Assembly (NCBI GenBank): GCA_963773665.1
Contig: CAVZBZ010000004.1
Span: 275,430-339,429, forward strand
DNA length: 64,000 bases
Direction: 5' to 3'
Source: an uncultured Alphaproteobacteria bacterium
Lineage (GTDB): Bacteria; Pseudomonadota; Alphaproteobacteria; ATCC43930; CGMCC-115725
Below are positions 3,328 to 58,918 of this stretch, one piece after another; positions within the stretch are counted from its first letter, which is position 1; the number at the start of each line of letters is the position of its first letter. The translations under genes were made by a program, and so were the position numbers. The notes beneath the pieces were generated by a model. The model made no database searches. It was not told the DNA's origin and worked only from the letters and a program-made list of their open reading frames with translations.

Positions 3328-3396
3328 AGGCGATGCATTGCTGACCTGCCGGGGGGTTGCTTGACCGGCGCGCCGCCGGCCGCGCATCATGCGTCC

Positions 3397-4605
3397 ATGC
3401 CGCGGCGCGAATTACGGGTCAATCTATTGATCTCGATGGGACACACGCTGTCCCATTTCTATTTCCTGTGCCTGCCGCCGCTGTTCATCGTGTGGCAGCG
3501 CGATTTCGGCATCAGCTTCGCCGAACTCGGCCTCGCCGTCGTGGTGATGAGCATCATGTCGGCCTCGCTCCAGACGCCGATCGGGTTCCTGGTCGACCGC
3601 TATGGCGCGCGGCCGTTCCTGATCGGCGGCACGCTGCTCATGTCGCTGGCGATCTCGGGCATGGCGTTCGCGACCAGCTATTGGCAGGTGGTGGCGCTCG
3701 CGACGGTGTCGGGCATCGGCAATGCCGTGTTCCATCCGTCCGACTACTCGATCCTCGCCGGCTCGATCGCCAAGGAGCGCATCGGCCGCTCCTTCGCGCT
3801 GCACAGCTTCACGGGAAACATCGGGTTCGCGTTGGCGCCGCCGGTCGTGGCCGGCCTCATGCTGGTCATGGGCTGGCGCGAGGCGCTGTTCATTCTGGGC
3901 CTTTTGGGCCTGCCGGTGGCGTGCGCCGTGATCTGGCAGAGCTCGATCCTCCAGGACGAGGCCAGGCGCGACAAGAAGAAGGAGGGCCGGCTCACGGTGC
4001 GCGACCTCGTGCTCGACCGCACCATGCTGCTGTTCTTCGCGTTCTATCTGCTCGGCTCGATGGCGGGGAGCGGCGTCCAGGCCTGGCTCATTACCGTGCT
4101 GCACCAGGTGAAGGGGATCGAGATCGCGCTCGCCTCGGCGGCGCTCACCGCATACTTGCTCGGATCGGCGGCGGGCGTGCTGTTCGGCGGCTGGGCGACC
4201 GACCGCGCCAAGTCCCATCGCCATCTTTCGACCTTCGTCATCGCGCTGACGAGCCTGTCGGCCGTGACCACGCTGCTGGTCGGCGTGACGCCGGTCGGAG
4301 GGGTCGTGGCGATCGCGATGATGTTCTTCTCCGGCCTCTGCCTCGGCGGCAGCCGGACGCCGCGCGACGTGATGCTGAAGGACGCCGCACCGCCGGGCGA
4401 GATCGGCAAGGTGTTCGGCTATATCAGCGCATCGCTGCCCTTGGGCAGCGCGCTCGTGCCGGTGCCGTTCGGGTTTTTGATCGACCACGGCCATCCCGAA
4501 TACGTGCTCGTCGTGGCCGCCATCCTGCTCGCCGGAAGCCTGTTCTGCATGGGCTCGGCCAAGGCCTCGATCAAACAGCGCACGGTGCCGGCGCCGGCCG
4601 AGTGA
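3397..4605 (+). CDS. MFS transporter
   Basis: About 12 hydrophobic segments and an MFS-type loop (FLVDRYGARP). The start could be TTG 3361 or ATG 3397. Confidence 0.85.
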   Translation: MPRRELRVNLLISMGHTLSHFYFLCLPPLFIVWQRDFGISFAELGLAVVVMSIMSASLQTPIGFLVDRYGARPFLIGGTLLMSLAISGMAFATSYWQVVALATVSGIGNAVFHPSDYSILAGSIAKERIGRSFALHSFTGNIGFALAPPVVAGLMLVMGWREALFILGLLGLPVACAVIWQSSILQDEARRDKKKEGRLTVRDLVLDRTMLLFFAFYLLGSMAGSGVQAWLITVLHQVKGIEIALASAALTAYLLGSAAGVLFGGWATDRAKSHRHLSTFVIALTSLSAVTTLLVGVTPVGGVVAIAMMFFSGLCLGGSRTPRDVMLKDAAPPGEIGKVFGYISASLPLGSALVPVPFGFLIDHGHPEYVLVVAAILLAGSLFCMGSAKASIKQRTVPAPAE

Positions 4606-4715
4606 TCCGGCATTATGCAGTAGCCTCCGGTGATGTTGCGCCGATGCTCGCCGTAGACGTACGATGCCCCCAAAACAACCGGGGGGCGTACCTCCCGCAC
4701 CATTGGGGGGACGAC

Positions 4716-5648
4716 ATGGCTCGGCCAAGGCCGTTTCTGTTTTGCCGATACCGGCTGCTCGTCAACGATGATCCGCTTAACGCACGCGCTCAGCTACAGG
4801 CGCTTACAGAGTTACAGGGTCAATATTTCGCTGCCAGCGCCGCCGCTGAGCGGCAAGGGCGACGCGACAGCGCCATATTCCGCGCGCGTACGCTCGTTGC
4901 TAAAGGCGAGCGCGCGATTACATGGTCCGTCGGGCGCAAGGTCGGCACGCGAATAACGGTCGAACCCAATGATGATGGCTCTGCGTTGCAAATGGGAAAC
5001 GTTCCGGACCGAGGCGTTCATTACTCGGATTTCGTTGCCATTCCTCGGCTTGGGGCGCTGGCCGTAGACGACCGTAGCGGCGAGCCGCATTTAGGCGGCA
5101 AAGCCGCGATCAATCGCTTCCAAGCTGTCTTTGAGCATCTTCCTGGCGCAGCATCGGAGATTTCGCAGACCACGACCAACGCGGAAGTTCAACGAGCGCT
5201 CAGGCGATGGCAGCTGACCGAATTTTCTTTCGTAGTTCGCCCGGCAAATCCTCATCCGCCCAGTGATCTATCGGAAGAATTGAGCGAGGAATATCGCAAG
5301 GATAGGATTGGGCTCGAGCGCGGGATGTTTCGTCCGCGTCCCGGAGAGCAGATGCGTCCCTCCGAGGATGGCCCGATTGCGGCTGTGAGAGAATTGGCTG
5401 ACGACGGGTATGGCCAGTACGCCTTCAAGGGCGTTACGCCGGATGGCCACAGCGCACAGATTAAGGCCCCGAAATTCGACGAAAGCAAAGCCAAGAACCA
5501 AGAGCGGCAGGCGCAACCTCGCGAGCTGCGGATCGTTATTGAAACGGACGTGGATGTAGATGACGCGGTTCTGCGCAATGCGATCACTGCGCTAGGTCCT
5601 GTTTACAAAGTAGCGAGACGTAGGCATCTGCGGATGGTAGCGAGATGA
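4716..5648 (+). CDS. hypothetical soluble protein (island gene A); native 3' end displaced by the IS insertion
   Basis: In-frame ATG at 4716 within track ORF 3357..5648, with a GGGGGGA Shine-Dalgarno sequence. Lower-G+C codon usage than the neighbours, no TM segments, and no family I recognise. The reading frame runs 57 nt into the IS. Deleting the IS restores ...NAITALGQFYG-stop, which overlaps the next start codon. Confidence 0.6.
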   Translation: MARPRPFLFCRYRLLVNDDPLNARAQLQALTELQGQYFAASAAAERQGRRDSAIFRARTLVAKGERAITWSVGRKVGTRITVEPNDDGSALQMGNVPDRGVHYSDFVAIPRLGALAVDDRSGEPHLGGKAAINRFQAVFEHLPGAASEISQTTTNAEVQRALRRWQLTEFSFVVRPANPHPPSDLSEELSEEYRKDRIGLERGMFRPRPGEQMRPSEDGPIAAVRELADDGYGQYAFKGVTPDGHSAQIKAPKFDESKAKNQERQAQPRELRIVIETDVDVDDAVLRNAITALGPVYKVARRRHLRMVAR

Positions 5649-6451
5649 AGGGTATCGAGGAAGGAGCGCGCGAGCTTGTCATATCGGGTGGCGATGGCGC
5701 GGTTCACCTTGAGATGGCCGATCATTCGCTCGATGCGGTTGCGCTCGCGGTAGATGCGTTGGTTCCAGCGGATTGCGTAGATGCGATGGGACCGCGGCGG
5801 GATAACGGCGCGGATGCCGCGTCGGTGGAGCGCAGCGCGGATGGGATCGGTGTCGTAACCCTTGTCGGCGAGCAGATGAGCCGGGCGCGCCGGAGCGCGC
5901 GCGGTCACGGTTTCGAAGGCCGTGCAGTCCGCCGCTTCGCCGCCGGTGAGATGAAAGACGAGCGGGATGCCGTGGGCATCACTGAGACAATGAACTTTAC
6001 AGGTGAACCCGCCCCGCGAGCGGCCAAAAGCCTGTTCGCGAGTCCCCCTTTTGCGCCGGCTGCCGAGACGTGGCCTCGGACCGTCGTCGAGTCGATGCTG
6101 TGGCGGGAGTTGTCCGCCATCGCCCGGGCCAGCCTGGAGGCGACCGCCTCCCAGACGCCGGCCTGGCTCCAGCGTCGAAAGCGTTGGTACACGGTGATCC
6201 ATTTGCCGTACTTCTCGGGAACATCGCGCCACGGCGCGCCCGTGCGCAGGCGCCACAATATGCCGTTCACAATGGTCCGGTTGTCATGCGCAGGCCGGCT
6301 ATTCCGGCCGCGCTCGGCCGGCAACAGGTCTTTCAGCAGCCACCACTCCGCTTCGCTCAAATCGCCTCGACTCAACGACCCCTCCTCTCCAAGAGGAATC
6401 CTTGAATCAGAAGGCGATTCCCGCGTCAATAAGTTTGTAAACAGGACCTAG
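5592..6451 (-). mobile_element. IS5-family insertion sequence (IS427-like organisation, two overlapping transposase frames)
   Basis: Perfect 18-bp terminal inverted repeats: ctaggtcctgtttacaaa at 5592-5609 and tttgtaaacaggacctag at 6434-6451. The outer CTAG (or its TA core) may be the target duplication. The transposase stop codon lies inside the left repeat. Confidence 0.9.
5603..6429 (-). CDS. IS5-family transposase, orfA/orfB joined by a probable programmed -1 frameshift
   Basis: orfA (5905..6429) reads ...LSRGDLSEAEWWLLKDLLPAE...NGILWRLRTGAPWRDVPEKYG. orfB (5603..6256) reads ...GRSRGGFTCKVHCLSDAHG...LLADKGYD...YRERNRIERMIGHLK. The frames overlap at gcAAAAGGGGGAct (plus-strand 6043-6054), an A-run/G-run slip candidate. 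Confidence 0.85.
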
Positions 6452-6460
6452 GGCAATTTT

Positions 6461-7069
6461 ATGGCTGACGAACCGCTCGAACGGCCACGGTTTCTGCCGT
6501 CGTACATAGACGCGGTTGCGCAGAGCGCCCGAAAGCGCGGATGGCGAGCGCTGTGCCCATCATGGCTCGCCGCGTGCGGTGCCGGCGCCGCCGCAACGAC
6601 CTATTTCATGCCATACAACTTTTGGTCAGACGAGCGCCTAGACGTTTCTGTCGTTGTATATATCGGGATTTTGACGCTGAACGGGTTGATTCTGACCCTC
6701 AGCTGGAACGCGTTCTCCCGCATCTATGAAGCCATTAGTTCGCCGCGATTTGCCTCTTATCTGATGGCCAAGAAACTGATGAACCGATATATCGTGTATA
6801 TCGGTTACGTGCATGTTGCGCAGCTGGCCGCGATCATCACAAGTGCTGCAGGGCTTCTGTTGCTACTCTGCTCGATTGAGGAAGTGGCATATAATCGAAC
6901 CGCTTTTGCCGTAATGATCGCGGCATCGGCTTACGCCATCGTTACAGCGGCGAGAGCTGTAGAGGTCGTCCACGATCTCATCTGGCAGAAAGCAATATTT
7001 GACGATTTTATCGCTCGCCAAGAGGGTAAAAACGTCGTGCCCTTTGGCCGCAACAATGACGCGGTATAG
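6461..7069 (+). CDS. hypothetical integral membrane protein (island gene B), 3-4 TM helices
   Basis: 202 aa. Hydrophobic stretches are VSVVVYIGILTLNGLILTLSWNAF, YIVYIGYVHVAQLAAIITSAAGLLLLLC and AFAVMIAASAYAIVTAARAV. A/T-rich codons. The ATG overlapped the ancestral stop of gene A (ATGGCTGA). Confidence 0.65.
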   Translation: MADEPLERPRFLPSYIDAVAQSARKRGWRALCPSWLAACGAGAAATTYFMPYNFWSDERLDVSVVVYIGILTLNGLILTLSWNAFSRIYEAISSPRFASYLMAKKLMNRYIVYIGYVHVAQLAAIITSAAGLLLLLCSIEEVAYNRTAFAVMIAASAYAIVTAARAVEVVHDLIWQKAIFDDFIARQEGKNVVPFGRNNDAV

Positions 7070-7419
7070 AGCGTCCCTATAAATCTTCGAGCCTCACGCC
7101 CTCCAGTTCCAGCGCCGCAATGCAGGCCAGGAAGAACGTTGCCGCGTGGAGAAAACTGTCACGAAGCGCATCAGCGCGTGCTTGCGGCACCGCGGCACCA
7201 TCGGAACAAGGGGTTACTGCGGTCGCGCGGCGGCATCGGCAACCGCATTGTCTGGGGCGTTGTTCCCAAGAGCGAATCGCGCGCGAGATTCGCACGAAAT
7301 TCGCGCATGCCCAGCATCGTGCCCGCGCAAGCCATTGATCCCGTTAACGATTCGCAGCCATGTTGCGGTGCGCCCGCGCGTGTCTATATGTCTTTGCCCC
7401 TCATCGTGGCGAGGGATGC

Positions 7420-8061
7420 ATGGACGCGACCTACAATCTCAATGGCGGCTTCAAGCCAACGACAAAGCGATCGGCCGATCTTGATGGCCCAGATTTCTTC
7501 CCGACGCCGAGATGGGCAACGCACGCACTGATTGACAACGAGCCATTTCGCGGCGGCATCTGGGAGTGTGCTTGTGGCGATGGCTCTATGTCCGAAGTTC
7601 TCGCCGAAACCGGAAATCCTGTCGAAAGTTCCGATCTATTCGACCGAGGCTATGGCGAGATCGGCATAGATTTCCTGCACACAACGCGCCGTGCGAAGAA
7701 CATCATCACGAACCCACCCTACAACAGCGCCGAGGGCTTCGTCTCGACAGCGCTGAAGCAGGCAGAGAACAAGTTTGCGCTGTTGCTGAGGCTTGCATTT
7801 CTTGAAGGCGCGAACCGGGCGAAGACGATCTTCCATGTCACGCCGCCCAGCCGTGTATGGGTGTTCAGCGAGCGCATCACCTTCTACATGAAGAATGCCA
7901 AGATCGCTGGCAGCGGGACAACCGCCTACGCGTGGTTTGTCTGGGACAAGCATCATACAGGACCAACCGAATTGGCGTGGTTCAAACCGGGATATAAGGC
8001 CCGATACAGCGGCACAACTACTTCTTCAGTGACTCGACAAGGCGCTTTCCTGCCGCCGTGA
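7420..8061 (+). CDS. orphan DNA N6-adenine methyltransferase, gamma-class motif order, very short target-recognition region
   Basis: Motif order is FFPTP (motif X), then ECACGDG (motif I, SAM pocket), then NPPY (motif IV). ATG at 7420 with GAGGGA upstream. About 213 aa. No restriction endonuclease gene is adjacent. Confidence 0.7.
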   Translation: MDATYNLNGGFKPTTKRSADLDGPDFFPTPRWATHALIDNEPFRGGIWECACGDGSMSEVLAETGNPVESSDLFDRGYGEIGIDFLHTTRRAKNIITNPPYNSAEGFVSTALKQAENKFALLLRLAFLEGANRAKTIFHVTPPSRVWVFSERITFYMKNAKIAGSGTTAYAWFVWDKHHTGPTELAWFKPGYKARYSGTTTSSVTRQGAFLPP

Positions 8062-8314
8062 TCTTGAACCCGCGATAGATTTCGACGGCTAATCCGGCTT
8101 TCACGAGCGTTTTGTGGCTCTTGAGATTGCGGACCTTCTGCGAAAATTTCGTATCGGATCGCTGCTCCAATATCTCGGCATCTTCGCCTTCTGGCTTAAA
8201 TTGCGAACTAAGCGCCTCAATGATTTCCGTCGTCTTCATCTCGCCGTCAGGGGCGTTATAAAGAAGCTCCAAAGTCGGGATCACCAGTTCAGGCTCAGGA
8301 ATGCGCTTGGGCAT
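8018..8314 (-). CDS. stand-alone winged-helix protein resembling the N-terminal DNA-reader domain of Mrr-type restriction enzymes
   Basis: MPKRIPEPELVIPTLELLYNAPDGEMKTTEIIEALSSQFKPEGEDAEILEQRSDTKFSQKVRNLKSHKTLVKAGL... matches my recollection of the Mrr_N pattern. GGAGG lies about 9 nt upstream of ATG 8314. The 3' end overlaps the methyltransferase 3' end by 44 nt. Confidence 0.55.
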   Translation of the reverse strand: MPKRIPEPELVIPTLELLYNAPDGEMKTTEIIEALSSQFKPEGEDAEILEQRSDTKFSQKVRNLKSHKTLVKAGLAVEIYRGFKITAAGKRLVESLKK

Positions 8315-8425
8315 ATGCTTCATCCTCCACCCCACCGGGCGGCGCGACTCATGCCTCAGGCAGTCCCCTCAAGTCAAACCGGAGACTGCTATCTAATGCC
8401 AGAATAATCGGCCAGCGCAGCCCGC

Positions 8426-9307
8426 CTATTCGGCGGCGACCGCCGTGACGCCGCTTTTCCCGCTCTCGAGGCCGCGCAGATCGGGCAGGCCCAGATGCAG
8501 CATCTCGACCGGCTCGCGCGCGACGATGGCCGCGCGCTCGCCGTGCTGGAGATAGATCGTGGTGAGCGCTTGCAGCGTTTCCCCCGCCACGGTTCCGGCG
8601 CCCTTCAGAACGACGTAGATGCCGCGCCCCTCGGCCGCGAAGGTGGCACCCGGATCGAGCCGCAGGAAACGGGCCGAGCTGCGCCGCTCGGTGAAGGTGC
8701 CGACGAATTTCTCGGCGACGCCCGGCGCGCCCTCGACCGGCACCCACTCGAAATGTGCGGGGTCCATCATGAAGGGGCGCGAATAGCGCGCCTGCGGATA
8801 GGTCATCGGCCGCTTGTTGGCGTGTTCCCAGATCGCCTGATAGCCGTCCACGTTGCGCTTGCCGGGAACGTCGTGGTGGCGGCGGAACACGCCGTCCTTG
8901 AACTCGCCCTCCGAGCGGAGCGCGTCCATGCCGGCCTTCACTTCGTTGCGCGAGAGATAGCCGCTGCCGCTGGCGCCGCCCATTTGCAGCACCACGGTCA
9001 TCGGCGTGCCCTCGGGGTCCTGCGACTGCGGCCCGTAGGCCATGCCCTCGGGGAAATATCCGACCATGCCGGTCTTCATCTTGCCGTCGCGCGCGAAATC
9101 CAACTCGCCCGCGAGCTGAAACCGGATCTGCTCGAAATTATGCCGGTGGCGCGGCGAATAGAACGCGCCGCCCATGCGGCCGAGCGAGAGCTGGAAATTG
9201 TCGATGGCGCCCGGCTCGCCTTCCATGAGGCGGCGGAAATGGAACATGCCGCCGCGATGCTCGAGCCCGCGCTCCCATTGCAGCTCTTCGCCCTGCACGA
9301 TCTTCAT
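8426..9307 (-). CDS. cupin-fold protein (bicupin-like)
   Basis: 293 aa with SPRHRHNFEQIRF and a second beta-barrel half. GGAGGAAAG lies upstream of the ATG at 9307. Confidence 0.7.
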   Translation of the reverse strand: MKIVQGEELQWERGLEHRGGMFHFRRLMEGEPGAIDNFQLSLGRMGGAFYSPRHRHNFEQIRFQLAGELDFARDGKMKTGMVGYFPEGMAYGPQSQDPEGTPMTVVLQMGGASGSGYLSRNEVKAGMDALRSEGEFKDGVFRRHHDVPGKRNVDGYQAIWEHANKRPMTYPQARYSRPFMMDPAHFEWVPVEGAPGVAEKFVGTFTERRSSARFLRLDPGATFAAEGRGIYVVLKGAGTVAGETLQALTTIYLQHGERAAIVAREPVEMLHLGLPDLRGLESGKSGVTAVAAE

Positions 9308-10516: not shown

Positions 10517-11226
10517 GATCTTTCCTCCTGCAATCCCACGAGCACGGCGAGGCTCTCGCGGTCGGCGGCGAGTGCCGTGCTTTCGCCGCGCCAGACGACC
10601 TGGCCCTTGTCGAGCACGAGGGTGCGCTCGGTGAGCTCGAGGGCGATGTCCACCTGCTGCTCGACGAGCAGCGTCGCGATCCGGCTTTCGCGCCGCATCC
10701 GCACGAGCGCCGCCGCGAGCGTGTCGATGATGACCGGCGCCAGGCCCTCGAACGGTTCGTCGAGCATCAACAGCTTGGGATTGCCGGCGAGCGCGCGGCC
10801 CACCGCCAGCATCTGCTGCTCGCCGCCCGAAAGCTGGTTGCCGTAGTTGCGGCGCCGCTCGGCGAGCCGCGGAAAGAGATCGTACACGCGCTCGCGCGTC
10901 CATTCGCCCGGCCTGAGCGCCACGCGCAAATTCTCGTCCACCGTGAGCGAGGGAAAGATCTCGCGCTCCTGCGGCACGAGGCCGAGGCCGCGCTGCGCGC
11001 GCCGGTGCGGCGCCGCCGAAGTCACATCCGCGCCATCGAAGACGATGCGGCCGCCGCGCAATTCGGTGAGCCCCATGATCGTCAAAAGCAGCGTTGTCTT
11101 GCCGACGCCGTTCCGTCCGAGGAGCGCCCACGAATCTTCTGAGCCGATGCCGAGCGAGATTTCTTCCAGCACGATCGTGTCGCGATATCCGGCCGTGACG
11201 CCGTCAAGGTTCAGCATGTCAGCCAT
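10513..11226 (-). CDS. ABC transporter ATP-binding protein, LivF-like
   Basis: Walker A GRNGVGKTT, signature LSGGEQQ, Walker B LLMLDEP. An alternative start exists at 11217. Confidence 0.9.
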   Translation of the reverse strand: MADMLNLDGVTAGYRDTIVLEEISLGIGSEDSWALLGRNGVGKTTLLLTIMGLTELRGGRIVFDGADVTSAAPHRRAQRGLGLVPQEREIFPSLTVDENLRVALRPGEWTRERVYDLFPRLAERRRNYGNQLSGGEQQMLAVGRALAGNPKLLMLDEPFEGLAPVIIDTLAAALVRMRRESRIATLLVEQQVDIALELTERTLVLDKGQVVWRGESTALAADRESLAVLVGLQEERS

Positions 11227-11974
11227 GCGAGCGCTTTCCGAGATAGACGTCGCGCACGCGCGCGTCGGCGCGAATCTCGGCGGGCGCGCCCTCGACCAGC
11301 ACCTCGCCCTCGACCATGACCGTTATGCGCTCGGCGAGGCGGAAGACGAGGCTCATGTCGTGCTCTATCACCAGCACTGTGAGCGAGGAGGGCAGCCGCA
11401 GCAGAAGATCGAGCACGGCGTGCCGGTCGGACGAGGCGAGGCCCGCCGCCGGCTCGTCGAGGAGCAGCGTCTTCGGCTCGAGCGCCAGCACGAGCGCGAT
11501 CTCGACGAGACGGCGCTGGCCGTAGGGAAGATCGGCGATCGTGCGCGCAGCGATGGCGAGGAGGCCAAGGCTGTCGAGACACCGCGCCGTGCCGTCGACG
11601 ATCTCCGCGCGCGAGCGGAGCCGGCCCACGATCATCTGGTCTTCGCCGAGCCGCGCCTCCAGCGCGAGCGCCACGTTCTCGGCGACAGTGAGCTGCGGGA
11701 AGAGCGAACTGATCTGGAACGTGCGCGCGAGGCCCAAGGCCACGCGCCGCTCGGGCGCCAGCGCGGTCACATCGACGCCGTCGACCCGGATCGCGCCGCC
11801 CGACGGGCTCAGGAGCCCGGTGATGAGGTTGACGAGCGTGGTCTTGCCGGCGCCGTTCGGACCGATGAGCGCGTGCCGCGCCCCAGGTTCCAGCGCCAGC
11901 GACACTTCGCGCGCGACGCGGAGCGCGCCAAAGCTTTTCGAGACATGGTCGACCTCGAGCGCGGGCGTGCTCAC
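11219..11974 (-). CDS. ABC transporter ATP-binding protein, LivG-like
   Basis: GTG start (VSTPALEVDHVSKSFG) overlaps the permease stop as GTGA. Walker A GPNGAGKTT and LLLDEPAAG. Confidence 0.9.
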   Translation of the reverse strand: MSTPALEVDHVSKSFGALRVAREVSLALEPGARHALIGPNGAGKTTLVNLITGLLSPSGGAIRVDGVDVTALAPERRVALGLARTFQISSLFPQLTVAENVALALEARLGEDQMIVGRLRSRAEIVDGTARCLDSLGLLAIAARTIADLPYGQRRLVEIALVLALEPKTLLLDEPAAGLASSDRHAVLDLLLRLPSSLTVLVIEHDMSLVFRLAERITVMVEGEVLVEGAPAEIRADARVRDVYLGKRSHG

Positions 11975-12981
11975 GCGCGGCCTCTGCCCCAGCCCGCGCG
12001 CGCGGCCCCGCGCTCGATGAGGCCGACGAGCCCCTGCGGCGCAAACCGCACCGCGAGGATGAGGACGATGCCGACCGCAAACAGCCAGTTGAACGGATCG
12101 ATCGCGGCGGCGCGGTCGGACAGCACCACAAACAGCGTGGCGCCGAGGAATGCGCCATAGAGGCTCCCGATCCCGCCCAGGATCAGCATGACGAGCACGT
12201 TGCCCGACTGCATGAAGGCGAGGCTGTCGAGTCCGACGAGTCTCGTCACCTGCGCCGATAGGCTGCCCGCGACCGCCGCGAACGCGCCCGAGATGACGTA
12301 GAGCACGACGAGACGGCGGATAACGGGCACGCCGAGCATGCGCATGCGCACCGGATTCTCGCGGATGCCGCGGATGGTAAGGCCGAACGGCGAATTGACG
12401 ATCGCTTTCGACAGCAAGAACACGACCGCCATGGCGGAAGCCGCGTACCAATAGCCGGTGCGGCCGGCGAGATCAAAGGAGAAGAGGCCGAAAATCGGTG
12501 CGATCTCGTAGCCGAAAAGCCCGTCGGCGCCGCCCGTGACCGGCTTGAACCATTCCGCGTTCGCAACCGCCTGGAGCAGCGTCGCGACCGCGAGCGTCAG
12601 CATGACGAGCGTGAGGCCGCGGGTCCGCAGTACGAGCGGCCCGGCGAGGAGCGCCCCCACGCCGCCCGCGATCCCGGCCACGACGAGCCCCGAAATCGGC
12701 TCGGACGTGACCTCGAGCGCCCAGAGTCCGGCGGCATAGGCGCCGATGCCGAAGAACGCGGCGTGGCCGAGGCTCGCGACGCCGCCATATCCGAGCGCCA
12801 AATCGAGCGCCAACGCGAAGATGATGGCGATCATCACTTGCGTGCCGAGCTGCAGGTAGGTCGGAAAAATCAAATAGGCGAGAAGCACCGCGAGCCACGG
12901 CAGCGCGTCGAGCCACGACAGTTTATGACGCGAAAACGCGTCCCGCACCGTCGCCCCGCGCATGGACGCAGCCTCTTCCAT
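11971..12981 (-). CDS. branched-chain amino acid-type ABC permease, LivM-like
   Basis: Only the C-terminal 336 aa of track ORF 11971..15360 are real (MEEAASMRGATV...LDLALGYGGVASLGHAAFFGIGAY). The start overlaps the LivH-like stop by 1 nt. Confidence 0.85.
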   Translation of the reverse strand: MEEAASMRGATVRDAFSRHKLSWLDALPWLAVLLAYLIFPTYLQLGTQVMIAIIFALALDLALGYGGVASLGHAAFFGIGAYAAGLWALEVTSEPISGLVVAGIAGGVGALLAGPLVLRTRGLTLVMLTLAVATLLQAVANAEWFKPVTGGADGLFGYEIAPIFGLFSFDLAGRTGYWYAASAMAVVFLLSKAIVNSPFGLTIRGIRENPVRMRMLGVPVIRRLVVLYVISGAFAAVAGSLSAQVTRLVGLDSLAFMQSGNVLVMLILGGIGSLYGAFLGATLFVVLSDRAAAIDPFNWLFAVGIVLILAVRFAPQGLVGLIERGAARAGWGRGRA

Positions 12982-58206: not shown

Positions 58207-58548
58207 TCAGGCGGCGCGCAGCACGAAATCGACATGCACTTCGTCGTAGGGAAAGACGATCCGCCCATCGTCAACGCGGTCGAGAACGCCAGACTTGAGA
58301 AGCGCCTGTAAGTCACCGTGGACGGATTTCACGTCGCGGTCCACCCGGCGCGCGACTTCGCGAACCGCGATCGGTCCGGCCCCGGTCATCGCGCGCAACA
58401 CCTCCCATCGTTTCGGCGTGATCACTTTCCACAGCAACTCGGCTGATGCGAAGCCGATGAAGGCCCGCTGTTTTTGGCCCTCAAATGCGCGGCGCATTCT
58501 CGCTTTGGTATCGTCCACGGAGGAAATGCCTATCGTCACCGTGGTCAT
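58207..58548 (-). CDS. HTH DNA-binding protein, putative antitoxin (TumA / HVO_A0114-like)
   Basis: MTTVTIGISS...LLWKVITPKRWEVLRAMTGAGPIAVREVARRVDRDVKSVHGDLQALLKSGVL. The ATG overlaps the upstream stop (ATGA). Confidence 0.6.
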   Translation of the reverse strand: MTTVTIGISSVDDTKARMRRAFEGQKQRAFIGFASAELLWKVITPKRWEVLRAMTGAGPIAVREVARRVDRDVKSVHGDLQALLKSGVLDRVDDGRIVFPYDEVHVDFVLRAA

Positions 58549-58829
58549 GAGGGCCTCCACATCTCGATCTCGTCCCAGAAATCCGCCACGAGCTGCGTCA
58601 AGCTCGTGAAGGCATAGCTCACTTCTTCAACTCCGACGTGCTTGTGATCGCCCTTTCCAGTTTCATTGTCGAAACGCAGCACGCACACCTCGTCAACAAT
58701 GAAGGCCAGGCGGTACTTGAACCCATGCACGCTTCCCGATACCGGGCTGGGCAGCTGCCAGATTACCATATCGGCGAACCGCCCTTCGCTTACGATCCGC
58801 CTTTCGCGAAGCAACAGCCGGACCTTCAT
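58545..58829 (-). CDS. TumE / DUF6516-like putative toxin (intact copy)
   Basis: MKVRLLLRERRIVSEGRFADMVIWQLPSPVSGSVHGFKYRLAF...FDNETGKGDHKHV...YAFTSLTQLVADFW. The start is chosen by colinearity with the paralog at 20577. The track start is 58889. Confidence 0.6.
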   Translation of the reverse strand: MKVRLLLRERRIVSEGRFADMVIWQLPSPVSGSVHGFKYRLAFIVDEVCVLRFDNETGKGDHKHVGVEEVSYAFTSLTQLVADFWDEIEMWRPS

Positions 58830-58847
58830 GTTGGTATTTATACCAAC
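58830..58847. promoter_or_regulatory. perfect 7-4-7 palindrome GTTGGTA-TTTA-TACCAAC abutting the toxin ATG; candidate operator with an embedded -10 box
   Basis: On the coding strand it reads GTTGGTATAAATACCAAC, immediately followed by ATG. The TATAAA lies 8 nt from the start codon and there is no Shine-Dalgarno sequence. Confidence 0.4.
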
Positions 58848-58918
58848 AGCGATAACCCGGTCAACGCCGGAAACGGCGTTCCAACACATGGGATTGGGAC
58901 AAGAAAATCGGCATTAGA

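What the first reader, a model, noticed from the sequence alone, without database searches (positions are those of the whole stretch)
4606..8425. About 3.8-kb low-G+C island wedged between an MFS transporter and a cupin gene
The flanking genes use the GC3-saturated codon style of the rest of the window. Between about 4.7 and 8.4 kb, A/T-ending codons and AT-rich stretches become frequent (for example 6600-7060 and 7560-8330).

Every gene here is unrelated to the surrounding metabolism: unknown protein A, an IS5-family element, membrane protein B, an orphan m6A methyltransferase and a stand-alone Mrr_N-like winged helix. I found no integrase, tRNA or flanking direct repeat, so the acquisition route is not evident.
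Basis: partly seen in the sequence, partly recalled or inferred. Interest (0 to 1): 0.65.

Follow-up and report, generated by a model that had tools for sequence, protein, structure and literature searches.

The report
Acquired four-gene phage-defence-type islet
The low-G+C stretch is a genuinely foreign 3.8-kb insertion, and its genes are not a random mix: they are a compact four-gene cassette seen in other genomes (a lambda RexAB-like suicide-defence pair plus a DNA methyltransferase with a DNA-binding partner), here split by an insertion sequence.

Summary
Window 4606-8425 has 58.7% G+C against 67.9% elsewhere, GC3 of 0.61-0.66 against 0.87-0.92, and a tetranucleotide z-score of 11.5. In four related Stellaceae-like genomes the MFS and cupin genes lie tail to tail, 14-180 bp apart, with none of the island genes.

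The content is not a random mosaic.
- Protein A has an RdgC/lambda-RexA fold and belongs to a distant DUF4747 branch. Removing the IS5 element restores its C-terminus, and its stop codon then overlaps the start of B (ATGGCTGA).
- B is a roughly 200-aa protein with four hydrophobic segments. A-B therefore has the architecture of RexAB, Sbash gp30/31 and CarolAnn gp44/43.
- The "orphan" methyltransferase and the "stand-alone" winged helix form a conserved convergent pair. The helix's relatives are N-terminal domains of HNH nucleases that sit next to m6A methyltransferases.
- All four genes recur together in at least six other loci, in three gene orders. One locus carries a DUF4747/membrane pair with no detectable sequence similarity to A/B.
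- Each pair also occurs alone.

The acquisition route is unresolved: no integrase, tRNA or significant direct repeat. My verdict is an ordinary small defence islet of modest novelty. The new element is the recurrent link between a RexAB-like pair and a restriction-modification-like pair that lacks a nuclease. No function was tested.

The parts
4602..8401 (.). Foreign DNA, about 3.8 kb (about 2.95 kb without the IS). It is inserted at the last codon of the MFS gene.
   Evidence: Similarity to the empty sites of L001-L004 stops after GA at 4600-4601 and resumes at GAATAA at 8402-8407. Composition. The same junction, 99.9% identical, is seen in two other sequencing runs (L124, L125).
3361..4605 (+). 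Flanking MFS transporter gene. Its last codon and stop (GAG TGA, 4600-4605) are now partly supplied by the island, and the protein still ends ...PAPAE.
   Evidence: PF07690 at E 1.5e-45. It is 79-88% identical to the MFS genes next to the cupin gene in L001-L004.
4716..5594 (+). Gene A, native part (codons 1-293). It is a cytoplasmic protein with an RdgC/RexA-like fold from a distant DUF4747 branch. The present ORF runs on into the IS, to 5648.
   Evidence: AF2 pLDDT 94. Foldseek against PDB: RdgC 2owl at E 6e-6, lambda RexA 8twq_B ranked 4 (E 8e-3, probability 0.85). 51 of 57 family members give weak PF15931 hits. The family profile retrieves proteins that pass Pfam's DUF4747 threshold. pN/pS is 0.26-0.31.
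5595..6448 (-). IS5-family insertion sequence, 854 bp. It has perfect 15-bp terminal inverted repeats (GGTCCTGTTTACAAA) and a TA target duplication (5593-5594 and 6449-6450) inside a CTAG. Two overlapping ORFs: 5905-6429 and 5603-6256.
   Evidence: Inverted repeat I1. Sequence. NCBIfam transpos_IS5_3 at 129.9 and 148.3 bits against a cut-off of 110. DUF4096 and DDE_Tnp_1. Single copy in the window.
6451..6468 (+). Displaced last five codons and stop of gene A (GQFYG*). The stop overlaps the start codon of B (ATGGCTGA, 6461-6468).
   Evidence: Removing the IS and one TA gives a 298-aa protein ending ...AITALGQFYG*. This fits the family consensus ...ALxxFY and the 298-aa length of P0003, P0004 and P0006. 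The same 8-nt A/B overlap is seen in L007, L008 and L011.
6461..7069 (+). Gene B: a 202-aa membrane protein with four hydrophobic segments (about residues 28-50, 62-80, 111-137 and 149-167). It is the obligate downstream partner of A.
   Evidence: Hydropathy and alignment of 11 homologues. It follows A in every locus with enough sequence. No Pfam or PADLOC match.
7420..8061 (+). Small N6-adenine DNA methyltransferase, 213 aa. The SAM motif ECACGDG is at 7564-7584 and NPPY at 7711-7722. An upstream ATG at 7360 is an alternative start.
   Evidence: phrog_799 'DNA methyltransferase' at E 3.7e-63. It is 38% identical to PhiLM21_p027, which methylates GANTC (PMC5537653). pN/pS is 0.14-0.21.
8018..8314 (-). 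Winged-helix protein, 98 aa (an alternative GTG start at 8335 gives 105 aa). It is convergent with the methyltransferase gene and their 3' ends overlap by 44 bp.
   Evidence: Mrr_N at 26.7 bits, below the 29.5 cut-off. AF2 pLDDT 93.8, a generic winged-helix fold. 154 homologues, almost all about 100 aa, with an invariant DTKFSQKVRNL-type helix. The convergent MT/WH pair is found in about 20 loci.
8402..8425 (.). Relic of the ancestral end of the MFS gene (GAATAA) and of the short palindromic spacer between the convergent genes.
   Evidence: It aligns with GCCGAATAAGGCCAGC... of L001/L002.
8426..9307 (-). Flanking cupin gene.
   Evidence: Cupin_7 and Cupin_2. It is 72-88% identical in L001-L006.

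Best explanation
The island is a compact, horizontally acquired cassette of the phage-defence type. It landed exactly at the stop codon of the MFS gene and was later hit by an IS5-family element. It is built from two separable two-gene modules that repeatedly travel together.

Module 1 is A-B, which has the architecture of lambda RexAB, Sbash gp30/31 and CarolAnn gp44/43. A is a roughly 300-aa cytoplasmic, probably DNA-binding protein with an RdgC/RexA fold. It is translationally coupled to B, a roughly 200-aa four-segment membrane protein. By analogy, A senses an infection-specific DNA or protein-DNA state and activates B. B then dissipates membrane potential and aborts the infection.

Module 2 is a small m6A methyltransferase (NPPY) with a convergently transcribed winged-helix protein. 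The relatives of this winged helix are the DNA-binding N-terminal domains of HNH restriction nucleases. The pair therefore has the layout of a restriction-modification system without the nuclease. The methyltransferase marks resident DNA. The winged helix is a sequence-specific, probably methylation-sensitive, DNA binder that acts as a reader or regulator.

In this genome the IS replaced the last five codons of A and put 857 bp between A and B. This breaks their translational coupling, so the copy may be weakened or deregulated.

Shown here: the insertion, the composition, the gene architecture, the folds, the recurrence of the cassette and purifying selection. Inferred: every biochemical activity and the defence role.
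For: Insertion. The site is empty in four relatives, and the compositional outlier has z = 11.5.

A-B operon. The restored stop/start overlap ATGGCTGA and the 298-aa length. A is always followed by B.

Identity of A. RdgC and RexA are the structural matches. It links to DUF4747. The papers PMC6426596, PMC6426606 and PMC7542560 describe pairs of a DUF4747 protein and a 4-TM protein as prophage defence systems modelled on RexAB.

Contexts typical of defence cargo. A P4-like integrase/primase island (L009), SocAB (L008), nSTAND3 with AAA_15/DUF2813 (L012), and viral contigs (L014, L017, L018).

MT/WH pair. Found in window, L007, L011-L013, L019, L022-L026, L100, L109/110, L112, L113, L116 and L120-L122. 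WH-HNH fusions sit next to D12 m6A methyltransferases in L108 and L111; L115 has the methyltransferase but no detected HNH, and the L117 fusion sits next to an AlwI-type restriction endonuclease instead.

Four-gene linkage. Window, L007, L011, L012, L013, L122 (B fragment at the contig end) and L023, in three gene orders. L023 carries a canonical DUF4747 (PF15931, E 1.4e-25) plus a multi-TM partner, and neither is detectably similar to window A/B.

Rarity of the A family. Only 171 clusters among 1.84 billion representatives, so chance adjacency is implausible.

Selection. All four genes show pN/pS of 0.14-0.31 with saturated synonymous sites.
Against: No function was tested. The window's A does not itself hit PF15931 or PF15969, even at E 1. 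hhalign of the family profile against lambda RexA gives no signal. B does not hit RexB (PF15968). PADLOC has no model that matches any of the four proteins. Foldseek TM-scores to RdgC and RexA are low, 0.24-0.39.

Each module is often found without the other. A-B occurs alone, or with a DUF6471 gene, in L008, L009, L014, L017, L018, L104 and the P0011 contig. MT/WH occurs alone in at least 12 loci. Co-location could therefore be hitch-hiking.

In cultured rhizobiophages, relatives of the methyltransferase sit in replication modules, and a regulatory role that mimics CcrM has been proposed for them (PMC5537653).

No mobility function explains how the cassette moves.
Confidence: 0.55

Rival explanations
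1. A single integrated four-component system. The methyltransferase marks self DNA. The winged helix binds the same motif only when it is unmethylated, as on incoming phage DNA. The RexA-like protein A recognises that winged-helix/DNA complex and opens the membrane protein B. This would be restriction-modification-style self/non-self discrimination wired to an abortive-infection effector in place of a nuclease.
For: The four genes make up the entire island here and in L011 and L012. The linkage survives three different gene orders and IS insertions. It recurs with a DUF4747/TM pair with no detectable similarity to A/B in L023, where all four genes share a low GC3 of 0.31-0.37 against about 0.6 in neighbouring genes. 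Relatives of the winged helix are target-binding domains of HNH nucleases, several of them next to m6A methyltransferases. The classical Rex model invokes a protein-DNA complex as the trigger for RexA (quoted in PMC7542560).
Against: Both pairs are common on their own, so neither needs the other. There is no evidence that the winged helix is sensitive to methylation or that it contacts A. If the methyltransferase has GANTC specificity like its characterised relative, it would duplicate host CcrM marking and discriminate poorly.
Confidence: 0.25
2. Debris of a degraded prophage or satellite with no current defence role. The methyltransferase would be a phage CcrM-mimic once used for phage replication control, with the winged helix as its regulator. 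A would be an RdgC-like recombination modulator. The genes persist only because the insertion is recent.
For: Relatives of the methyltransferase lie in the replication modules of phages 16-3 and PhiLM21. Both modules occur inside IMG/VR viral contigs, next to portal or tape-measure genes. The island has not drifted towards host composition. The IS has already damaged the A-B operon.
Against: All four genes are intact and under purifying selection across deeply diverged copies. The cassette occurs as a precise four-gene unit without any phage structural or replication genes here and in L011, L012, L120 and L121. In prophage contigs the modules are low-GC3 inserts relative to the phage genes themselves. 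They therefore behave as moron-like cargo, not as core phage functions.
Confidence: 0.12
3. The region is native: the relatives lost it, or the low G+C merely reflects the amino-acid composition of the encoded proteins.
For: No integrase, tRNA or significant direct repeat marks an insertion.
Against: Four of four informative relatives have an intact short spacer between the convergent genes. A relic of the original MFS stop, GAATAA plus spacer, survives at the right edge of the island. GC3, which depends little on protein sequence, drops from about 0.9 to about 0.63. Homologous cassettes sit in unrelated genomic contexts.
Confidence: 0.03

Closest known systems
Lambda RexA/RexB exclusion system (Pfam PF15969/PF15968; RexA structure 8TWQ)
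   Same: A two-gene operon: a cytoplasmic protein of about 280-300 aa followed by a small protein with four membrane segments. The predicted fold of A matches RdgC and RexA. Both sit on mobile or prophage-type DNA beside a small DNA-binding protein (cI in lambda).
   Different: No sequence-level match of A to PF15969 or of B to PF15968. B is 202 aa against 144 aa for RexB. The host is an alphaproteobacterium, and there is no repressor operon. The exclusion phenotype is untested.
Mycobacteriophage Sbash gp30/gp31, Gordonia phage CarolAnn gp44/gp43 and Butters gp30/gp31 (the 'DUF4747/CarolAnn' defence type)
   Same: A DUF4747-related cytoplasmic protein plus a 4-TM protein immediately downstream. 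They are expressed from prophages or islands, and the proposed mechanism is abortive infection like RexAB (PMC6426596, PMC6426606, PMC7542560).
   Different: The window's A is a distant branch that does not itself reach the Pfam threshold. The cassette carries two extra genes, the methyltransferase and the winged helix, which are not reported for those systems.
Small alphaproteobacterial phage m6A methyltransferases, e.g. PhiLM21_p027 (GANTC, CcrM-like specificity)
   Same: About 200 aa with an NPPY motif. 38% identity over 84% of the length. Same PHROG family.
   Different: In phages 16-3 and PhiLM21 the gene lies in the replication module and has no convergent winged-helix partner. The specificity of the island enzyme is unknown.
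Type II restriction-modification systems with a winged-helix-HNH nuclease and an m6A methyltransferase (seen in L108 and L111)
   Same: The same winged-helix family, sharing the F[ST]Q[KI]VRNL recognition-helix motif, adjacent to an adenine methyltransferase. The M and 'R' genes are convergent or adjacent.
   Different: The island's winged helix has no nuclease domain. About 150 homologues keep the same length of about 100 aa. The methyltransferase belongs to a different family (phrog_799 rather than D12 class).
Loci with a restriction-modification operon, a regulator (CapK/CapS) and a DUF4747/CarolAnn operon (EMBO J 2026, PMC13373217)
   Same: A published precedent for physical linkage between methylation-based defence and a DUF4747 abortive-infection operon, with a DNA-binding regulator between them.
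   Different: No CapK kinase or CapS is present here. The restriction-modification part here lacks a nuclease.
PrrC anticodon nuclease embedded in the EcoprrI type Ic restriction-modification locus (from my own knowledge, not checked here)
   Same: An abortive-infection effector genetically and functionally tied to a methylation-based system.
   Different: The effector is unrelated (an RNase rather than a membrane protein). Functional coupling is not shown here.

Membership tests
Genomic island (horizontally acquired insertion) | Composition deviates from the host genome. | tested here: met
   G+C 0.587 against 0.679; GC3 0.61-0.66 against 0.87-0.92; tetranucleotide z = 11.5.
Genomic island (horizontally acquired insertion) | Absent from the syntenic site in related genomes. 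| tested here: met
   The MFS and cupin genes are adjacent in L001-L004, and no A, B, MT or WH is present.
Genomic island (horizontally acquired insertion) | An integrase, a tRNA target or flanking direct repeats. | tested here: not met
   No tRNA in the window. The best direct repeat is at chance level, P 0.5-0.9. No recombinase gene lies in the island. The only mobility gene is the internal IS5 transposase.
Pfam DUF4747 (PF15931) | The protein scores above the gathering threshold (27 bits). | tested here: not met
   The window's A gives no hit even at E 1.
Pfam DUF4747 (PF15931) | A family-level (transitive) link to bona fide members. | tested here: met
   51 of 57 relatives hit PF15931, best E 3.7e-6. 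The A-family profile finds P0347 and P0349 at E about 1e-7 among 1.84 billion proteins, and these score 56.7 and 30.6 bits on PF15931.
Lambda RexA (PF15969 / PDB 8TWQ) | Sequence similarity to RexA. | tested here: not met
   No PF15969 hit. hhalign probability 0.2. The PDB profile search finds nothing relevant.
Lambda RexA (PF15969 / PDB 8TWQ) | The RdgC/RexA fold. | tested here: inconclusive
   Foldseek: RdgC at E 6e-6 and probability 1.0; RexA 8twq_B at E 8e-3 and probability 0.85. TM-scores are only 0.24-0.39.
RexAB/CarolAnn-type two-gene exclusion system | A cytoplasmic sensor gene immediately followed by a gene for a small protein with about four membrane segments. | tested here: met
   The restored A stop overlaps the B start. 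B has four hydrophobic segments. The pairing is conserved in all loci examined.
RexAB/CarolAnn-type two-gene exclusion system | Phage exclusion with loss of membrane potential. | not testable with these tools
   Needs phage challenge and membrane-potential assays.
RexB (PF15968) | A sequence match. | tested here: not met
   B has no Pfam hit at E 0.1. Lambda RexB scores 305 bits on PF15968.
N6-adenine DNA methyltransferase | A SAM-binding motif I and the catalytic (D/N)PPY motif. | tested here: met
   ECACGDG at residues 49-55 and NPPY at residues 98-101. phrog_799 at E 3.7e-63.
N6-adenine DNA methyltransferase | Methylation activity and target motif. | not testable with these tools
   Only a 38%-identical relative has been characterised (GANTC; PMC5537653).
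Pfam Mrr_N (PF14338) | A score above the gathering threshold (29.5 bits). | tested here: not met
   26.7 bits, E 6.2e-6. The fold is a generic winged helix.
Type II restriction-modification system | A cognate nuclease alongside the methyltransferase. | tested here: not met
   The winged helix is 98 aa with no nuclease domain. Only its relatives in L108, L111 and L117 carry HNH.
IS5 family insertion sequence | A transposase of the family, terminal inverted repeats and a target duplication. | tested here: met
   transpos_IS5_3 at 129.9 and 148.3 bits against a cut-off of 110. Perfect 15-bp inverted repeats and a TA duplication within CTAG.

The most novel reading that the evidence does not exclude
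The four genes form one new kind of defence system. A methyltransferase marks self DNA. A nuclease-less winged helix, derived from the target-recognition domain of HNH restriction enzymes, reads unmethylated foreign DNA. The signal passes to a RexA-like protein that opens a RexB-like membrane channel. This would be restriction-modification logic coupled to abortive infection rather than to DNA cleavage. It would also give the long-debated Rex trigger ('a protein-DNA complex') a concrete, testable form.
Probability: 0.25. Interest if true: 0.8.

Novelty: new variant of a known kind. Interest (0 to 1): 0.45.

Why it matters
For this genome the result is mundane: a small, recently acquired, IS-damaged defence-type islet.

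More broadly, two points stand out.

First, RexAB/CarolAnn-like DUF4747 pairs are documented here in soil Alphaproteobacteria and their (pro)phages. They form a rare, distinct branch of only 171 clusters among 1.84 billion representative proteins.

Second, they are repeatedly welded to a pair with the layout of a restriction-modification system but no nuclease. The 'restriction' subunit of that pair has been reduced to a conserved DNA-binding winged helix.

How RexA senses infection has been unclear since the 1990s (my own knowledge, not checked here). A natural cassette that puts a sequence-specific DNA binder and a methyltransferase next to a RexA-like sensor offers a tractable system to test whether a DNA-bound protein is the trigger.

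Separately, the MT/WH pair is a widespread, unannotated two-gene module whose function is unknown.

Tried and rejected
- PADLOC models: no hit for A, B, MT or WH.
- NCBIfam: no hit for the four proteins.
- PDB sequence searches for the A profile, MT and WH: nothing meaningful.
- hhalign of the A profile against lambda RexA and against the L023 DUF4747: no signal. A single-sequence template gives little power.
With a smaller alignment it returned only three loci, so co-occurrence had to be estimated from about 40 loci gathered in other ways.
- Flanking direct repeat or target duplication: the candidate GCCGAGTGA / GCCAGAATAA is at chance level.
- Terminal inverted repeat: a 14/18 match (P about 0.013) is most simply inherited from the ancestral site. 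That site is itself palindromic, because both convergent genes end GCCGAATAA/G. I therefore do not claim a transposon-like end.
- Sigma-70 promoter scan: none found. Terminator-like sites are at background level.
- Rfam and tRNA searches: nothing.
- A hairpin upstream of A that would sequester the Shine-Dalgarno sequence: visible in some loci but not significant against shuffles, except in L104.
- Foldseek of the winged helix: only generic MarR, PadR and forkhead matches.
- GANTC sites in the winged-helix promoter regions: inspected by eye and not consistent between loci.

Full report
**Observation.**

A sliding-window profile shows G+C falling from 0.64-0.70 to 0.50-0.60 between about 4.6 and 8.4 kb, with a G+C-richer block at 5.8-6.4 kb. 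Quantified:
- Window 4606-8425 has G+C 0.587, or 0.573 once the IS is removed, against 0.679 for the rest.
- It is the lowest-G+C 3.8-kb stretch in the whole 64-kb window.
- GC3 is 0.61-0.66 for the four cargo genes. It is 0.87-0.92 for the luciferase-like monooxygenase (LLM), MFS, cupin and ABC genes around them.
- The tetranucleotide distance to the rest of the window is 11.5 standard deviations above same-size background chunks.

**Is it an insertion?**

A scan of one genome per species with the cupin protein returned six loci from Stellaceae or uncultured alphaproteobacterial MAGs, 72-88% identical. In L001-L004 the cupin and MFS genes lie tail to tail, 57, 67, 180 and 14 bp apart. The LLM gene and the ABC/g9353 genes flank them, wholly or in part, as in the window. 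None of A, B, MT or WH is present.

Similarity to these empty sites runs up to the GA of the last MFS codon (4600-4601). It resumes at 8402 with GAATAA, the original last codon and stop of the MFS gene, followed by the original spacer. The foreign DNA therefore entered exactly at the MFS stop codon. It supplies a new G-TGA, so the transporter still ends ...PAPAE.

Two short contigs from other sequencing runs carry the same right junction at 99.9% identity.

No tRNA gene exists in the window. Candidate flanking direct repeats are at chance level. A 14/18 inverted match at the two junctions (P about 0.013) is most simply explained by the palindromic nature of the ancestral site, because both convergent genes end GCCGAATAA/G. 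The route of acquisition stays unresolved.

**The IS element.**

Perfect 15-bp inverted repeats (GGTCCTGTTTACAAA) delimit an 854-bp element at 5595-6448. It is flanked by a TA duplication inside a CTAG. It has two overlapping ORFs that each exceed the NCBIfam IS5_3 cut-off. It is the only copy in the window.

Removing it together with one TA restores gene A to 298 aa ending ...AITALGQFYG*. This is the family consensus and the family length. The TGA of A then overlaps the ATG of B (ATGGCTGA).

The IS is therefore a secondary hit. It swapped the last five codons of A for 17 IS-encoded ones and uncoupled B from A.

**Genes A and B.**

A has no Pfam, NCBIfam or PADLOC match of its own. Its 73 database homologues are mostly tagged with weak DUF4747 hits, and 51 of 57 aligned members hit PF15931 at E <= 1.

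An exhaustive profile search found only 171 clusters among 1.84 billion representatives. Its weaker tail includes proteins that pass Pfam's DUF4747 threshold.

An AlphaFold model (pLDDT 94) matches RdgC best (E 6e-6) and lambda RexA at rank 4 (probability 0.85). It also matches uncharacterised proteins of about 300 aa from uncultured phages.

B has four hydrophobic segments and conserved LTxNGLxLxLxW and DLIWQ motifs.

In every locus with enough sequence, A is followed by a B homologue, in most of them with overlapping stop and start codons.

Pairs of a DUF4747 protein and a 4-TM protein are experimentally shown prophage defence systems in actinobacteriophages Sbash, CarolAnn and Butters. Their authors model them on lambda RexAB: the sensor activates a membrane channel, membrane potential is lost and the infection aborts (PMC6426596, PMC6426606, PMC7542560).

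The contexts of A-B elsewhere fit defence cargo:
- an integrase plus primase island (L009);
- next to SocAB (L008);
- next to nSTAND3 and AAA_15/DUF2813 genes (L012);
- low-GC3 inserts in viral contigs (L014, L017, L018).

**The methyltransferase and the winged helix.**

The methyltransferase has motif I (ECACGDG) and NPPY, and matches phrog_799 at E 3.7e-63. It is 38% identical to PhiLM21_p027, which was shown to methylate GANTC.

The winged helix scores just under the Mrr_N threshold and models as a generic winged helix. It has 154 homologues, almost all about 100 aa, with an invariant recognition-helix motif.

The two genes are convergent here, with a 44-bp 3' overlap. The same convergent pair is found in about 20 loci, both cellular and viral.

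Relatives of the winged helix also occur fused to an HNH nuclease in L108, L111 and L117. In L108 and L111, and beside the related 267-aa protein of L115, the neighbouring gene is a D12-class m6A methyltransferase, an ordinary restriction-modification layout. In L117 the neighbour is an AlwI-type restriction endonuclease. The pair thus has the layout of a restriction-modification system whose nuclease subunit has been reduced to its DNA-binding domain.

It is not a decaying remnant. Both genes show pN/pS of 0.14-0.29 with saturated synonymous sites.

**The four genes as a unit.**

A, B, MT and WH occur together in the following gene orders:

| Loci | Gene order |
|---|---|
| Window, L011, L012, and apparently L122 (B fragment at the contig end) | A>B>MT><WH |
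| L007 | A>B>[transposase, P63C]>WH><MT |
| L013 | WH>A>B>[IS1595]<MT |

In L011 and L012 the four genes are packed into about 2.6 kb, as in the window once the IS is removed.

L023 is an IMG/VR contig. There a canonical DUF4747 (PF15931, E 1.4e-25) and a multi-TM partner show no detectable similarity to the window's A and B. They nevertheless lie next to homologous WH and MT genes, and all four share a GC3 of 0.31-0.37 against about 0.6 around them.

Given how rare the A family is, this adjacency is not chance.

Each pair is also common alone:
- A-B without MT/WH, often with a small convergent DUF6471 gene instead: L008, L104, the P0011 contig, L009, L014, L017 and L018.
- MT/WH without A-B: at least 12 loci.

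**Interpretation.**

I therefore favour a cassette of two separable modules that cooperate or are co-selected (confidence 0.55). A fully integrated four-component mechanism is the main, more novel, alternative (0.25).

A published precedent for linkage between restriction-modification operons and DUF4747/CarolAnn operons, through CapK/CapS regulators, exists (PMC13373217). In lambda and CarolAnn the rexAB-like genes sit beside the repressor.

**Verdict.**

The description of the cargo as unrelated orphans is not supported.

The island is an ordinary small defence-type islet, damaged by an IS and of unknown entry route. The recurrent link between a RexAB-like pair and a restriction-modification-like pair that lacks a nuclease appears undescribed in the literature I could search. 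It is a modestly interesting new variant of known kinds.

No biochemical function was tested. All mechanisms are inferred from architecture, fold and analogy.

Noticed in passing
window 58207-58889 (- strand): A second low-G+C spot (1-kb G+C 0.597). It holds a two-gene toxin-antitoxin-like pair: a TumE toxin (PF20126, E 4e-14) and an HVO_A0114-type helix-turn-helix protein (PF25212, E 2e-28)..
   Followed up: partly
L008 9565-9795; L104 7341-7580; P0011 contig 8559-8837: In A-B loci that lack the methyltransferase/winged-helix pair, a small DUF6471 gene (76-92 aa) lies immediately after B and convergent with it. It may be an alternative small partner for the RexAB-like pair.
   Followed up: no
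L023 5983-8420: An IMG/VR contig carrying a canonical DUF4747 protein (282 aa), a multi-TM protein (192 aa), the winged helix and a convergent methyltransferase. All four have GC3 of 0.31-0.37 against about 0.6 in neighbouring phage genes, so the block is a moron-like insert.
   Followed up: partly
L108 3836-5786; L111 3833-5762; L115 2809-4769; L117 3302-5868; L118 3921-5249; L119 3852-5249: The same winged-helix family occurs fused to HNH nucleases in L108, L111 and L117. L108 and L111, and also L115 (no HNH detected there), have a D12-class m6A methyltransferase next door; L117 has an AlwI-type endonuclease instead. The family also forms the C-terminal domain of Bro-N proteins (L118, L119).
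   Followed up: partly
L013 2083-2952; L019 4930-5892; L120 7484-8422; L008 9902-10864; L121 6975-7877; L007 9492-10709: IS elements lie inside or directly beside these cassettes in many loci: IS1595 family four times, one IS1-like and one DDE_Tnp_1. This hints at IS-assisted mobilisation or a shared target preference.
   Followed up: no
L104 5113-5742; P0011 contig 11422-12159: Fragments of a Mg-chelatase/ComM-like gene flank the A-B-DUF6471 cassette. This suggests insertion into comM, a known island hot spot (the hot-spot status is from my own knowledge).
   Followed up: no
L003 about 10856-11034 (the empty MFS-cupin spacer): In this relative the spacer is 180 bp rather than 14-67 bp and contains two long near-perfect palindromes. 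The same spot between the convergent genes may therefore attract small insertions.
   Followed up: no
window 4666-4715; L013 443-492; L104 5821-5870: A C-run upstream of gene A can pair with its G-rich Shine-Dalgarno sequence, giving a possible translation-limiting hairpin. The fold is better than shuffled sequence only in L104 (z = -3.4).
   Followed up: partly
window 5571-5648: The IS-encoded replacement tail of A (…ALGPVYKVARRRHLRMVAR) happens to keep a V-Y where the family has the nearly invariant F-Y. A may therefore remain folded despite the insertion.
   Followed up: no
L124 and L125 (runs ERR11748454, ERR12036785): Short contigs 99.9% identical to window 7285-9089. The same organism, with the island in place, is present in other public metagenomes.
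   Followed up: partly
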